IMG/VR virus record: IMGVR_UViG_3300047494_000100 | Location: 1-64,000 of that record | Length of the DNA stretch: 64,000 nt | Strand: one strand, 5' to 3' | Source: a virus | Shown: positions 59,653 through 61,353 of the stretch, piece by piece | How the letters are laid out: each line of letters starts with the position of its first letter | Numbering within the stretch: the first letter of the stretch is position 1 | Program-made: the position numbers and the translations under genes | The notes under the pieces: generated by a model | The model's database searches: none | What the model was told of the DNA's origin: nothing | The model's input: the letters and a program-made list of their open reading frames with translations, nothing else

Positions 59653-60960
59653 TTACTTTTCTGACCGCACAATAAAGTTAAGCACACGATCGCTCCATCC
59701 ATCAATATGTGTCCATTGACGGTAGCCAACGCCGTTCTTGTTGCTGGCTACATTGATCATGTAACCTTTGCGCTGTTCAACAGGATCGTGAGATTGTTCA
59801 TCCGTGATAACTATAAGACGATCAGTTCTATTCATTAGGCTCACAGCCCTGCCTAAGTTAGTTCCACCATGCGGCTGAGAAGTCATAATTGCATCACGTA
59901 ACGCAAACCCATGACGAACAGGAACTTCTTTCACATCATTAGAAAAAGTGAATATCCGCAACTCTTCAAACAATTCTGCTCCGATCATGGCCAAGGAACA
60001 AGCCACATCGATGCGCTTGAGTTCACTGCGGCCGGAAAGCTTATCATCCATGCTGCCGGAGATGTCAATTAAAAGCGTGGTGGCCCCAGTTATCTTTTCT
60101 TTTTCCGCAAAACATTCCAGGAATTTTCTTTCGATAACGGGTTCAAACTGCGGATTGTGAACAGCAGCCGAAATAAAGTTTATGGGCAAAAGCCTTCCTG
60201 CTTTGATTTCATTAATGCCGTCCCAGATTAATTTGTTGTCTACTCCGGCTTCCCGCATATTGCGGATGTTGCGCAACATCGCGAGACCACCGAGTTTCTT
60301 TTCACGCAATAAACGTGACCAGGATTCGAGTTTGTTTTTAGAAGCTGAGATCTCAACTTCCCAGGTGTCCGGAGTGTTTAACTCACCTTTAATAAGGCGT
60401 CCCCACAAAGCAGCCTGCTCTGGGCTTGTGGCTTTTGGATGCGTCAAGCACATTGCATCTTTAAGGGTGACAGCTTTATTTCCGCCGTTCCATTTTGCGA
60501 GTTGGTACTCGCTGAACTTAGCCCAGGTGAGCGCAAGGTGTTTCCGGATTTGGTTGGGGAGTTTTGCTGGTTGTCTATGTACTTTCTTCTCTAAGAAATA
60601 CATAGACAACAACTCCGTGATGTCATCAGGGCGAACAATGACTTCAGGAATAACTTTTGCGAGTTGTTTCTTACCCTCTTTAGTGCGGGCAAGTTCACGC
60701 GCCAATAAAAGAGGAACATGACGAAGACGCATATCACGTTTGGCTTCAATAGCAATCCGAGCAACTTCAGCTTTGTCGCATTGTTCAACCAGCTTACAAA
60801 TTCTTTCAGCGATGGATTCTCCATCTTCATAGAAGGTGTTTTCCCAAAGGAGGCAGCTCATGACAGAACGTTCTAGCTGTTGTACTATAGTAATAGGAAC
60901 AGCCGCAGCACCTTCATGTGTGACTTCAGTGTTCTTCAGTTTGCGGTTCGTTGTAGCCAT
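59653..60960 (-). CDS. rsr: Ro60/Rsr homologue (TROVE domain + vWA domain with MIDAS)
   Basis: N-terminal THEGAAAV...LLWENTFYEDGES is TROVE-like. C-terminal LLIDISGSMDD...GGTNLGRAV...LIVITDEQSHD is a DxSxS..T..D MIDAS. AAGGAGG SD. Confidence 0.75.
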   Translation of the reverse strand: MATTNRKLKNTEVTHEGAAAVPITIVQQLERSVMSCLLWENTFYEDGESIAERICKLVEQCDKAEVARIAIEAKRDMRLRHVPLLLARELARTKEGKKQLAKVIPEVIVRPDDITELLSMYFLEKKVHRQPAKLPNQIRKHLALTWAKFSEYQLAKWNGGNKAVTLKDAMCLTHPKATSPEQAALWGRLIKGELNTPDTWEVEISASKNKLESWSRLLREKKLGGLAMLRNIRNMREAGVDNKLIWDGINEIKAGRLLPINFISAAVHNPQFEPVIERKFLECFAEKEKITGATTLLIDISGSMDDKLSGRSELKRIDVACSLAMIGAELFEELRIFTFSNDVKEVPVRHGFALRDAIMTSQPHGGTNLGRAVSLMNRTDRLIVITDEQSHDPVEQRKGYMINVASNKNGVGYRQWTHIDGWSDRVLNFIVRSEK

Positions 60961-60982
60961 GGTGTCCTCCTTTTAAAGTTAC

Positions 60983-61102
60983 AGTACGGAAAGAGCGAAC
61001 AAGGAAATGTCTTCAACCACTCGACCACAACTCCTTGCGGAATTGGCAGGATTCGAACCTGCGATTAGTTAGCACTAAGTAACCCTATTCTGCGCCAGTA
61101 CT
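60983..61102 (-). ncRNA. Y-RNA-like gene Yc (YrlA-type, tRNA-like module)
   Basis: Terminal stem AGUAC-(U)-GG / CC-GUACU. 5' box UGGCGCAGAAUAGGGUUACUUA and 3' box UUCGCUCUUUCC. T arm GCAGG-UUCGAAU-CCUGC (61046-61062). Acceptor-like stem capped by GCAA (61028-61045). D arm with GG (61009-61025). Confidence 0.6.
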
Positions 61103-61103
61103 T

Positions 61104-61235
61104 GAGGAACGGAAAGATCGAAGAGAGTAACAACGTGTCCTACCATTAGACGACTGTTCCTAAGAACAGGTGTGGATTCGAACCACACTTCTCGATCTGC
61201 AAATGATAAGTAACTCTTTTCTGCGCCAGTTCCTC
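61104..61235 (-). ncRNA. Y-RNA-like gene Yb (YrlA-type, tRNA-like module)
   Basis: Terminal stem GAGGAAC-(U)-GG / CC-GUUCCUC and the same 5' and 3' boxes. T arm UGUGG-UUCGAAU-CCACA (61171-61187). Acceptor-like stem CUGUUC-UUAG-GAACAG (61154-61169). D arm GUCU-AAUGGUA-GGAC (61137-61151). Confidence 0.6.
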
Positions 61236-61243
61236 GTATTCTT

Positions 61244-61319
61244 TGATTGTTGGAAAGATCGAATAAGGTACGAGCATCATTAACAGTGATAAGTATCCCT
61301 ATTCTGCGCCAAACAACCA
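61244..61319 (-). ncRNA. Y-RNA-like gene Ya (short, YrlB-type, simple hairpin module)
   Basis: Terminal stem UGGUUGUU-(U)-GG / CC-AACAAUCA and the same boxes. Internal hairpin UAUCA-CUGUUAA-UGAUG. Confidence 0.5.
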
Positions 61320-61325
61320 TCACAA

Positions 61326-61353
61326 TTTATAAATGTTCCTCTACAAAAGACTA
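61326..61353 (-). promoter_or_regulatory. Promoter TAGTCT-N16-TATAAA directly upstream of the Y-RNA cluster
   Basis: On the minus strand: ATAGTCTTTTGTAGAGGAACATTTATAAATTGTGA, followed by the Ya 5' stem. The predicted start is about 1-2 nt before Ya. Confidence 0.45.

What the first reader, a model, noticed from the sequence alone, without database searches (positions are those of the whole stretch)
59653..61353. Phage-encoded Ro60/Rsr homologue preceded by three tandem Y-RNA-like genes, two with circularly permuted tRNA-like modules
Three back-to-back RNA units lie just upstream of the TROVE+vWA (Rsr-like) gene, on the same strand and behind a promoter-like motif. All three share one architecture: a terminal stem, a bulged U, a GG/CC pair, a conserved 5' box UGGCGCAGAA(U/A)AG(G/A)G and a conserved 3' box UUCG(A/C)UCUUUCC. 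The two boxes can pair as an imperfect helix. That helix shows covariation: AAUAGGG pairs with CCUU(A/G)UU in Ya and Yc, but AAAAGAG pairs with CUCUCUU in Yb. Yb and Yc each enclose a T arm (GGUUCGAAUCC), an acceptor-like stem closed by a tetraloop (UUAG or GCAA) and a D arm with GG. This is the tRNA order permuted so that no free acceptor end exists, as described for bacterial YrlA RNAs. Ya carries only a hairpin, like YrlB. Rsr/Y RNA modules are known in bacteria, and as far as I recall in a few phages. A triple tandem array next to a phage tRNA set and a DNA-modification cluster looks unusual. It could act in RNA quality control or as a tRNA decoy during infection; that functional idea is inference.
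Basis: partly seen in the sequence, partly recalled or inferred. Interest (0 to 1): 0.9.

Follow-up and report, generated by a model that had tools for sequence, protein, structure and literature searches.

The report
Phage Ro60 gene with three Y RNAs

Summary
On the minus strand, three back-to-back units (Ya 61245-61318, Yb 61104-61235, Yc 60983-61102) lie directly upstream of a 435-aa ORF (59653-60960). The ORF is a TROVE plus vWA protein whose predicted fold matches solved Ro60/Rsr rings.

All three units share these features:
- a closing stem;
- a bulged U;
- a GG:CC pair;
- a GGCGCAG box;
- a second helix;
- a UACUU motif;
- a UUCGNUCUUUCC box.

Yb and Yc also carry a T arm, a loop-closed acceptor-like stem and a D arm, which is the YrlA layout. 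Ya carries a single hairpin.

A covariance model built from the window and four syntenic phages finds 115 such units in 79 homologous loci. All are on the TROVE gene's strand, and covariation is strong (93.8% of cells paired against 64.7% in shuffles; 29 of 31 pairs show double changes). The tRNA 15:48 tertiary pair also covaries.

Phage Ro60/Y-RNA modules were described in 2014 and 2025. Arrays of 2 to 5 or more units are the norm in this subfamily, so the triple array is not unusual. Rfam's YrlA model scores well below its threshold here.

Verdict: real, correctly interpreted, a new member of a known kind. Function is inferred only by analogy (Ro60-Y RNA-exoribonuclease complexes).

The parts
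61326..61394 (-). Promoter-like region upstream of the array. The scan found TTGATA (61386-61381), 18 nt, TAAAAT (61362-61357). By reading, TAGTCT (61353-61348), 16 nt, TATAAA (61331-61326) would place a start about at the first base of Ya.
   Evidence: 10 of 12 match, but the region has no more such sites than shuffles; reading. A similar GATAGTCTT...TATAAA stretch precedes the array in L017. Unverified.
61245..61318 (-). Ya, 74 nt. It has a closing stem GGUUGUU/AACAAUC, a bulged U, GG:CC, a GGCGCAG box, helix AAUAGGG/CCUUAUU, AUACUU, one hairpin and a UUCGAUCUUUCC box. It has no T, acceptor or D arms (YrlB-like).
   Evidence: R1 covariance model 49.5 bits, E 9e-15; fold; boxes.
61275..61291 (-). 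Ya hairpin UAUCA-CUGUUAA-UGAUG. A 5-bp stem and a 7-nt loop that looks like a tRNA-Asn anticodon loop.
   Evidence: The same loop with different stems occurs in units of L001, L002, L016, L017, L018, L039 and L051.
61104..61235 (-). Yb, 132 nt. A YrlA-like unit with closing stem GAGGAAC/GUUCCUC, a bulged U, GG:CC and helix AAAAGAG/CUCUCUU (one A.C). It has a weak V hairpin, a T arm at 61171-61187, an acceptor-like stem CUGUUC-UUAG-GAACAG at 61154-61169 and a D arm GUCU-AAUGGUA-GGAC at 61137-61151.
   Evidence: R1 119.4 bits, E about 1e-34. The unit was in the model's training set.
60983..61102 (-). Yc, 120 nt. A YrlA-like unit with closing stem AGUAC/GUACU and helix AAUAGGG/CCUUGUU. It has a V hairpin at 61065-61078, a T arm at 61046-61062, an acceptor-like stem CAAUUCC-GCAA-GGAGUUG at 61028-61045 and a class-II-like D arm GUC-GAGUGGUUGAA-GAC at 61009-61025.
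   Evidence: R1 86.1 bits with filters off; Rfam YrlA 15.2 bits only; coordinates.
60966..60972 (-). Shine-Dalgarno AAGGAGG, 5 nt before the ATG and 10 nt after the end of Yc. No terminator lies between the array and the gene, so co-transcription is likely.
59653..60960 (-). 435-aa Ro60-like protein: a TROVE (HEAT-repeat ring) domain plus a C-terminal vWA domain with a complete MIDAS motif (D299-x-S301-x-S303, T367, D387).
   Evidence: - Pfam TROVE 6.8e-13.
- PHROG 850 'RNA-binding protein' 2.6e-43.
- PDB sequence hit to Thermus phage phiLo Ro60, 4e-21, over aa 13-430.
- AlphaFold model pLDDT 84.7.
- Foldseek hits to phiLo Ro60, Xenopus and human Ro60 and Deinococcus Rsr, E 1e-10 to 3.5e-19, TM 0.61-0.73.
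- MIDAS residues are invariant in 36 homologues.

Best explanation
This is a phage-borne Ro60/Y-RNA ribonucleoprotein module. One transcript, probably starting about 61319-61350, carries three Y RNAs and then the ro60 mRNA.

Proposed steps:
1. The RNAs are released as species of about 74, 132 and 120 nt, each protected by its own closing stem.
2. Each RNA binds the Ro60 ring through the element all three share: closing stem, bulged U, GG:CC pair, GGCGCAG / UUCGNUCUUU internal loop and the adjacent helix.
3. The distal part sticks out as the effector or tether module. In Ya this is a hairpin. In Yb and Yc it is a tRNA-shaped T arm, closed acceptor stem and D arm.
4. By analogy with Deinococcus and Salmonella Rsr-Y RNA-PNPase, and with Thermus phage phiLo Ro60-Yrl-PNPase, the particle is expected to dock onto a host 3'-5' exoribonuclease. 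It would redirect or damp RNA decay in the infected cell.

Shown here: the protein fold, the RNA secondary structure and tRNA-like tertiary pair by covariation, and the strict linkage of RNA and protein genes.
Inferred: processing, binding, the partner nuclease and the effect on infection.
For: Protein:
- TROVE domain.
- Full-length sequence match to the solved phage Ro60.
- Confident model whose best structural matches are all Ro60/Rsr rings.
- Conserved MIDAS motif.

RNA in the window:
- The boxes occur three times each against about 0 expected for the 5' box.

RNA in close relatives:
- Four syntenic phages, 66-74% protein identity, carry 3-4 units of the same design upstream of the gene.
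- RNAalifold on a plain MAFFT alignment recovers the closing stem, GG:CC, box helix, T stem and acceptor stem. 18 of 31 pairs show compensatory change.

RNA across the family:
- Model R1 finds 115 units in 79 homologous loci, all on the TROVE strand.
- 93.8% of cells are paired, against 64.7% in shuffles and about 45% with partners slid.
- 29 of 31 pairs show double changes.
- The tRNA 15:48 pair was not in the model, yet it covaries: G-C 33, A-U 12, G-U 0, A-C 2.
- U8, A14, G18, G19 and the UUCRA T loop are nearly invariant.

Literature:
- YrlA RNAs have the same V/T/acceptor/D order, a GNCGAA(N)G 5' motif and a YUAY motif. They lie within 4 kb of Ro60 on the same strand in 254 bacteria and 22 phages.
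- phiLo Ro60 binds phage-encoded Y-like RNAs and host PNPase.
Against: - No expression, processing or binding data exist for this phage.
- Rfam's YrlA model scores only 15.2 bits on Yc (threshold 69) and does not report Ya or Yb.
- The published 5' motif GNCGAA(N)G is not matched exactly. The window has GGCGCAG.
- The covariation figures come from an alignment fitted to the model's structure.
- No PNPase, RtcB or RNA ligase was found among the window ORFs scanned. The only RNA nuclease seen is an Rv2179c-like exoribonuclease 23 kb away.
- The partner is therefore a guess, and the host is unknown.
- In phiLo the complex slowed PNPase rather than activating it, so even the direction of the effect is uncertain.
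Confidence: 0.85

Rival explanations
1. The RNAs act mainly as tRNA decoys or sponges. Each unit displays a different tRNA look-alike: Yb has a class-I D arm, Yc has a class-II D arm plus a long variable arm, and Ya has an Asn-type anticodon loop. They would sequester or divert host proteins that recognise tRNAs, such as anticodon nucleases of defence systems, modification enzymes or RNase P. Ro60 would serve as a protective scaffold.
For: - Units within one array carry different tRNA-like identities.
- Among 30 family units with a stem of at least 4 bp and a 7-nt V loop, 15 follow the anticodon-loop rule (U at loop position 2, purine at position 6). The chance rate is about 13%, binomial 8e-7.
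- The loop CUGUUAA or CUGCUAA recurs with different stems in at least 9 units, including window Ya.
Against: - In the window only Ya has a clean anticodon-like loop, and it lacks the rest of the tRNA shape.
- The V hairpins of Yb and Yc are not anticodon-like.
- No defence nuclease is known to be trapped by a Y RNA.
- The hairpin search was my own script and was not corrected for relatedness.
- This reading is compatible with the main explanation rather than opposed to it.
Confidence: 0.12
2. The three structures are a cis-acting 5' leader that controls translation or stability of the ro60 mRNA. They would not be separate stable RNAs.
For: - The array abuts the ribosome-binding site: Yc ends 10 nt before AAGGAGG.
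- No terminator separates the array from the gene.
Against: - In several homologous loci the same units lie downstream of the gene: L005, L014/L047, L027/L028, L036, L080.
- In other loci they sit several hundred bases upstream of the gene.
- Each unit has its own closing stem.
- Homologous RNAs in Salmonella, Mycobacterium and Deinococcus are stable trans-acting RNAs bound by Rsr.
Confidence: 0.03
3. They are ordinary or permuted tRNA genes: tandem tRNAs, or halves that are joined into working tRNAs.
For: - The Rfam tRNA model gives 32.8 bits (threshold 29) for 61038-61160. That hit joins the Yb D arm to the Yc T arm across a 61-nt insert.
- ARAGORN or GenBank call tRNAs on homologous units in L002 and L003.
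Against: - ARAGORN finds no tRNA in the region.
- The cross-unit acceptor stem has two mismatches, while the within-unit stems are fully paired and closed by 4-nt loops.
- There is no room for a discriminator base or CCA.
- There is no anticodon arm between the D and T arms.
- The closing stem and box helix covary, which a tRNA gene would not require.
- In relatives the acceptor strands of neighbouring units are not complementary.
- The Rfam tRNA model does not support the annotated tRNA-Ser of L003.
Confidence: 0.02

Closest known systems
YrlA RNAs of Salmonella, Mycobacterium and other bacteria (Chen et al. 2014, PMC4201824; Rfam RF02553)
   Same: - They are encoded next to Ro60 on the same strand.
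- A 5' purine-rich Ro-binding motif is followed by YUAY, a V hairpin, a T arm, a loop-closed acceptor-like stem, a D arm and then the 3' strand of the stem.
- The tRNA tertiary pair 15:48 covaries.
   Different: - The motif is GGCGCAG, not GNCGAA(N)G.
- Both strands of the protein-binding stem are conserved here (bulged U, GG:CC, a UUCGNUCUUUCC 3' box). In Salmonella and Mycobacterium only the 5' strand is recognisable.
- The Rfam model scores 15 bits against a threshold of 69.
- The partner protein is a short (435 aa) TROVE subfamily.
Salmonella YrlB (short Y RNA without a tRNA-like domain)
   Same: Ya has the protein-binding stem and one hairpin only. It sits in the same operon as the tRNA-like Y RNAs.
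   Different: - There is no sequence relationship. YrlB homologues were found only in Salmonella.
- The Ya hairpin imitates an anticodon arm.
Thermus phage phiLo Ro60 with Yrl1/Yrl2 (NAR 2025, PMC12135203; PDB 9KOP, 9L5Y)
   Same: - It is the closest solved protein (4e-21, TM 0.73).
- It is a phage-encoded Ro60 with phage-encoded Y-like RNAs at the same locus.
- It binds host PNPase in vitro.
   Different: - Protein identity is only about 24%.
- The published Yrl RNAs are simple stem-bulge-stem RNAs chosen by a CGAA motif, with no tRNA-like domain.
- My model finds family-type units downstream of the phiLo gene instead.
Caulobacter phages CcrColossus and CcrPW and other phage TROVE loci
   Same: - The protein is from the same subfamily, 47% identical.
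- CcrColossus is listed among phages with Y-like RNAs.
- CcrPW has at least 5-7 tandem units of the same design upstream of the gene.
   Different: - These are jumbo phages of Caulobacter, with longer arrays and a GGCGUAG box.
- The window phage is an unrelated contig of about 79 kb with a P22-type portal.
Deinococcus radiodurans Rsr-Yrn1-PNPase (RYPER)
   Same: A Ro60 ring plus a Y RNA that tethers an exoribonuclease. This is the mechanistic template for the explanation given here.
   Different: - Yrn1 has a different arm order and belongs to a separate lineage.
- No PNPase link has been shown here.

Membership tests
Ro60 / Rsr (TROVE + vWA ring proteins) | TROVE domain above Pfam's curated threshold | tested here: met
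   PF05731, 49 bits against a cut-off of 23, E 6.8e-13. Only aa 194-266 align.
Ro60 / Rsr (TROVE + vWA ring proteins) | C-terminal vWA domain with a MIDAS motif | tested here: met
   - Pfam vWA_Ro60 gives 23.7 bits, below its 27.7 cut-off.
- The model has a Rossmann-like beta/alpha C-terminal domain that matches vWA/I-domains.
- D299-x-S301-x-S303, T367 and D387 are invariant in 36 homologues.
Ro60 / Rsr (TROVE + vWA ring proteins) | Whole-chain fold like solved Ro60 rings | tested here: met
   Foldseek on a pLDDT 84.7 model gives 9KOP E 3.5e-19 (TM 0.73), 1YVP 1.8e-12, 2NVO 4.1e-12 and human Ro60 9NEN 2.4e-10.
Ro60 / Rsr (TROVE + vWA ring proteins) | Binds Y RNAs or misfolded RNAs | not testable with these tools
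   Needs co-immunoprecipitation or EMSA.
YrlA (Rfam RF02553) | Covariance model score at or above the gathering threshold (69 bits) | tested here: not met
   Yc scores 15.2 bits, E 2.9. Ya and Yb are not reported even at E up to 10. Units in related phages score 30-52 bits.
YrlA-like Y RNAs as defined by Chen et al. 2014 | Within 4 kb of a Ro60 orthologue, on the same strand | tested here: met
   The units end 22 to 284 nt upstream of the ATG on the same strand. The same holds for 115 of 115 family hits.
YrlA-like Y RNAs as defined by Chen et al. 2014 | 5' motif GNCGAAN0-1G | tested here: not met
   The window has GGCGCAG in all three units, one substitution. In the family the position reads A 45, U 39, C 29 among the 114 of 115 aligned rows that have a base there. 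Only 15 of 103 distinct units match the strict motif.
YrlA-like Y RNAs as defined by Chen et al. 2014 | YUAY motif before the V region | tested here: met
   AUAC in Ya, UUAC in Yb and Yc. UACUU is nearly invariant in 115 aligned units.
YrlA-like Y RNAs as defined by Chen et al. 2014 | T arm, loop-closed acceptor-like stem and D arm in that order, with tRNA-like conserved bases and the 15:48 pair | tested here: met
   - Yb and Yc meet it; Ya does not.
- In the family alignment T, acceptor and D stem cells are 95-99% paired, with double changes in 11 of the 13 pairs.
- U54, U55, C56, A58, G18, G19, U8 and A14 are nearly invariant.
- The 15:48 pair covaries, Fisher 1.7e-9, not corrected for phylogeny.
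- Yc has G15:C48. Yb has A15 with G48, which is not canonical.
YrlA-like Y RNAs as defined by Chen et al. 2014 | tRNA-type modifications and recognition by RNase P or the CCA-adding enzyme | not testable with these tools
   These are experimental features.
Canonical tRNA genes | Cloverleaf with free acceptor ends and an anticodon arm | tested here: not met
   ARAGORN finds none in 60900-61400. The one Rfam tRNA hit joins two units across a 61-nt insert and has two acceptor mismatches.
Metazoan-type Y RNA (Rfam Y_RNA) | Match to the Rfam model | tested here: not met
   No hit at E up to 10 in 60900-61420.

The most novel reading that the evidence does not exclude
The tandem array may be a panel of different tRNA look-alikes, not redundant copies of one Y RNA. 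The panel would comprise a class-I body, a class-II body and an Asn or Ser-type anticodon loop, all mounted on a common Ro60-binding handle. This would let one phage Ro60 ring recruit, or decoy, several different host tRNA-recognising proteins. Candidates include anticodon nucleases of anti-phage defence systems and queuosine-family or other modification enzymes. If so, the recurrent CUGUUAA or CUGCUAA loop would be a specific bait.
Probability: 0.12. Interest if true: 0.75.

Novelty: new member of a known kind. Interest (0 to 1): 0.4.

Why it matters
The role of Ro60 and of the tRNA-like domain of bacterial Y RNAs is still unsettled. Phage copies are a natural experiment on what the particle is good for.

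This locus adds a well-defined example from an uncultivated phage with hypermodified-thymidine genes. The family analysis also gives three practical results:
1. A very large TROVE subfamily exists. Members occur in phages, Acidobacteriota and Planctomycetota. The subfamily comes with Y-RNA arrays that Rfam's YrlA model does not annotate at its threshold.
2. Some tRNA genes annotated next to phage TROVE genes are probably Y-RNA units.
3. The units show conserved features that are ready for mutagenesis: the bulged U, the GG:CC pair, UACUU and the anticodon-like loops.

None of this overturns current understanding.

Tried and rejected
- **Megablast against phages.** The 2.3-kb region found nothing. 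The phage has no close sequenced relative. Relatives were reached only through the protein.
- **Rfam at gathering thresholds.** Nothing was found in the region. At permissive thresholds there was only a weak YrlA hit and a cross-unit tRNA hit, which I judged an artefact of tandem permuted units. It is the mirror image of the dimeric-tRNA false positives that Chen et al. warn about. One such false positive appeared in my own search, L005 4213-4352.
- **R1 with default filters.** It missed Yc in the whole-window search. With filters off it recovered all three units. Array sizes are therefore undercounts.
- **The 159-aa ORF downstream of ro60 (59134-59613).** I tested it as a possible partner. 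It has no Pfam or PHROG family and is conserved only in the four closest phages, so I dropped it.
- **RtcB, RNA ligase and PNPase.** None was found among about 40 window ORFs scanned.
- **Published phiLo Yrl RNAs.** I looked for units upstream of the phiLo gene, where Yrl1 and Yrl2 were taken from. R1 gave no convincing upstream hit.
- **Supplementary tables of Chen et al. 2014.** These list the phage YrlA copies but are not held. I could not check whether tandem arrays were already tabulated.
- **The 2020 Annual Review on bacterial Ro60.** It is not held.
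Full report
**What is in the sequence.**

Read on the minus strand, the stretch 61318-60983 holds three adjacent units, followed by AAGGAGG and the ATG of a 435-aa ORF at 60960. Unit coordinates are Ya 61245-61318 (74 nt), Yb 61104-61235 (132 nt) and Yc 60983-61102 (120 nt).

Each unit opens and closes with a stem of 5-7 bp whose sequence differs between units: GGUUGUU/AACAAUC, GAGGAAC/GUUCCUC and AGUAC/GUACU. After that stem every unit has, in order:
- an unpaired U;
- GG, which pairs with CC at the other end;
- CGCAG;
- a 7-nt strand that pairs with a strand near the 3' end;
- (A/U)UACUUA.

On the 3' side every unit has UUCG(A/C)UCUUUCC.

The 15-nt 5' box occurs three times in 64 kb, against 0.04 expected. 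The 12-nt 3' box occurs three times exactly.

Single-sequence folds contain the closing stem and the box helix in all three units. In Yb and Yc they also contain the T hairpin and the loop-closed stem. Z-scores are modest, -1.9 to -2.4.

Yb and Yc contain GGUUCGAAUCC T arms. They also contain stems closed by UUAG and GCAA, and D arms with GG. The order is T arm, acceptor-like stem, then D arm.

**The protein.**

Sequence evidence:
- The ORF hits Pfam TROVE (E 6.8e-13) and, below threshold, the Ro60-type vWA domain.
- It hits PHROG 850 'RNA-binding protein' along its whole length.
- In the PDB it hits only the Ro60 of Thermus phage phiLo, E 4e-21, aa 13-430.

Structural evidence:
- An AlphaFold model from 36 homologues is confident, pLDDT 84.7 and pTM 0.83.
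- Its 13 best structural matches are all Ro60/Rsr rings.
- They are phiLo (TM 0.73), Xenopus, human and Deinococcus radiodurans, E 1e-10 to 3.5e-19.
- The MIDAS residues of the vWA domain are invariant.

It is therefore a short Ro60.

The window is a phage. It encodes a portal, terminase, major head protein, primase and family-A polymerase. Immediately downstream of ro60 lies a thymidine-hypermodification set: TAGT glycosyltransferase, 5-hmdU DNA kinase and a thymidylate-synthase-like enzyme. The portal is P22-like, and no sequenced phage is close.

**Relatives.**

- The protein family is very large. 7,999 of the 8,000 candidates scored reached E below 1e-20.
- It is present in 117 phage records: Caulobacter CcrColossus and CcrPW, Xanthomonas, Brevundimonas, Ralstonia, Microcystis, Rhizobium, crAss-like, Streptomyces and Gordonia phages.
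- It is also found in Acidobacteriota and Planctomycetota genomes.
- The closest proteins, 66-74% identical, sit on syntenic phage contigs with the same downstream DNA-modification genes.
- Each of these contigs has a non-coding gap of 440-560 nt upstream of the gene.
- Those gaps hold three or four units of exactly the same design.
- CcrPW has at least five to seven units, and Xanthomonas phage MET23-P3 has several.

**Structure test.**

1. A plain MAFFT alignment of nine tRNA-like units from the window and the four close phages was folded by RNAalifold. It independently gave the closing stem, GG:CC, the box helix, the T stem and the acceptor-like stem. 18 of 31 pairs were kept through changes on both sides.
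2. One pair reads GC 4 / CG 4 and another reads AU 6 / GC 2 / GU 1.
3. A covariance model (R1) with that structure, with the D stem corrected by hand, scores the window units at 119, 86 and 49.5 bits. It finds nothing else convincing in the window.
4. Over 79 homologous loci R1 finds 115 units, every one on the strand of the TROVE gene and most of them upstream.
5. On the resulting alignment of 103 distinct units:
   - 93.8% of cells are standard pairs;
   - shuffles give 64.7%, and sliding the partners by 1-3 columns gives 41-47%;
   - 29 of 31 pairs show double changes;
   - the covariation score is 0.552 against 0.145 in shuffles and at most 0.095 when slid.

That alignment is fitted to the model, so these figures lean towards it. 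Two things do not depend on the fit. One is the MAFFT/RNAalifold result. The other is the tRNA tertiary 15:48 pair, which was not in the model. It reads G-C 33, A-U 12, G-U 0, A-C 2, Fisher 1.7e-9, uncorrected for phylogeny.

Family-wide invariants are:
- the bulged U, present in 113 of 114 units;
- GG:CC;
- GG(C/U)GNAG;
- UACUU;
- tRNA positions U8, A14, G18, G19, U54, U55, C56 and A58.

**Comparison with what is known.**

Chen et al. (2014) reported YrlA-like RNAs in 254 bacteria and 22 phages. These lie within 4 kb of Ro60 on the same strand. Their features are:
- a GNCGAA(N)G motif near the 5' end;
- a YUAY motif;
- a V hairpin;
- a T arm;
- an acceptor-like stem-loop;
- a D arm;
- 15:48 covariation.

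Salmonella also has the short YrlB. A 2025 paper names CcrColossus among those phages. It shows that phiLo Ro60 binds two phage-encoded Y-like RNAs and host PNPase, and that the complex slows PNPase in vitro. Jumbo-phage TROVE proteins have also been noted.

The window module has the same architecture and context, so it works like, and is best filed with, Ro60/YrlA-type modules.

Two formal membership tests fail:
- Rfam's YrlA model gives 15 bits against a threshold of 69. It gives 30-52 bits on units of related phages.
- The strict 5' motif is off by one base, GGCGCAG. That position is variable across the family, and only 15 of 103 units match strictly.

Unlike Salmonella and Mycobacterium YrlA, both strands of the presumed protein-binding stem are conserved here.

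36 of 52 loci with hits have at least two units and 16 have three to five. These are undercounts, because default filters miss adjacent units. I could not check whether such arrays are tabulated in the 2014 supplement.

**Mechanism.**

Shown:
- a Ro60-fold protein;
- three RNAs with a shared, covarying stem module, two of which also have a tRNA-shaped module;
- strict genetic linkage of the RNA and protein genes.

Inferred:
- The RNAs are co-transcribed with ro60. Promoter-like motifs lie at 61386-61357 and 61353-61326, and no terminator precedes the gene.
- They are trimmed to their closing stems.
- They bind the ring through the shared module.
- They present their distal modules to a partner.

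The best-supported partner class is a host 3'-5' exoribonuclease such as PNPase, as in the Deinococcus, Salmonella and phiLo complexes. No such gene is linked here. The phage's own Rv2179c-like exoribonuclease (36597-37166) is a candidate worth testing.

Alternatives are a decoy role for tRNA-binding host factors, a cis-acting leader, and real tRNA genes. They are weighed in the rival section. The last two are contradicted by the units lying downstream of the gene in several loci. They are also contradicted by the closed acceptor stems and the absence of ARAGORN calls.

**An extra feature.**

In many family members the V hairpin, followed by a 4-5-nt linker such as AGGUC, looks like a tRNA anticodon arm plus variable loop. 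Of 30 units with a stem of at least 4 bp and a 7-nt loop, 15 follow the U33/R37 rule, against about 13% expected.

The loop CUGUUAA or CUGCUAA recurs with different stems in at least nine units. One is the lone hairpin of window Ya (UAUCA-CUGUUAA-UGAUG, 61275-61291).

This explains why ARAGORN and GenBank call a tRNA-Asn or tRNA-Ser on such units. It is also the basis of the more novel reading, a panel of tRNA look-alikes on a common Ro60 handle. That reading is not excluded, but it is weakly supported for this window.

**Verdict.**

The finding is real and correctly interpreted. It is a divergent new member of a known kind, and the array is typical of its subfamily. Interest is moderate.

Noticed in passing
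window 18382-18693 and 18826-19109 (minus strand); 19349-19954 (plus strand): Two group I introns (Rfam 60.9 and 77.3 bits) lie just upstream of the major head protein ORF (17203-18345). A GIY-YIG endonuclease-like ORF is next to them. The capsid gene may be split by self-splicing introns.
   Followed up: no
window 58661-58798: 23 tandem copies of a hexanucleotide (CCGACC on the plus strand) sit at the 5' end of the TAGT glycosyltransferase ORF. They read as a (Gly-Val)n tract if translated. This may be a length-variable tract in or before a DNA-modification gene.
   Followed up: partly
window 36597-37166 (minus strand): The phage encodes an Rv2179c-like 3'-5' exoribonuclease (Pfam E 1.6e-49). 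Because Ro60 particles work with 3'-5' exoribonucleases, it is a candidate partner. No linkage was tested.
   Followed up: no
window 61275-61291; L001 1998-2133, L002 2298-2435, L003 2312-2445, L006 2254-2324, L016 2573-2712, L017 2624-2757, L018 2689-2829, L039 134-202, L051 598-732: The 7-nt loop CUGUUAA or CUGCUAA, like a tRNA-Asn or tRNA-Ser anticodon loop, recurs in Y-RNA units of unrelated phages and bacteria on stems of different sequence. This suggests selection on the loop itself.
   Followed up: partly
L003 2311-2385 (Brevundimonas phage Kikimora, GenBank tRNA-Ser); L002 2300-2370 (Xanthomonas phage MET23-P3, ARAGORN tRNA-Asn): These tRNA calls coincide with Y-RNA units (R1 58.5 and 61.8 bits). 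The Rfam tRNA model does not reach its threshold on them. They are probably mis-annotated parts of Y-RNA arrays.
   Followed up: partly
L080 3089-3154 and 3280-3359 (Thermus phage phiLo, MH673673.1): Two units with this family's hallmarks lie just downstream of the phiLo Ro60 gene (R1 21.7 and 14 bits). The hallmarks are a closing stem, a one-base bulge, GG:CC, GGGUACUU and a ...CUUUCC 3' side. The units overlap the annotated CDS phiLo_25. The published Yrl1 and Yrl2 were picked from the upstream region.
   Followed up: partly
L003 5886-6231 (Brevundimonas phage Kikimora): A permuted (two-piece) tmRNA is encoded a few kb from the phage TROVE gene (Rfam 57.7 bits, above threshold).
   Followed up: no
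window 21368-22060 and 39994-40065: The two tRNA finders disagree. Rfam reports a tRNA at 21368-21440 that ARAGORN misses. ARAGORN reports tRNA-Tyr at 21975-22060 and a second tRNA-Pro at 39994-40065 that are absent from the Rfam gathering list.
   Followed up: no
L005 4213-4352 (Microcystis phage Mvi-JY20): An R1 hit of 20.5 bits spans the T arm of tRNA-Arg and the D arm of tRNA-Met. It is a dimeric-tRNA false positive and a caution for weak hits of any YrlA-type model.
   Followed up: yes
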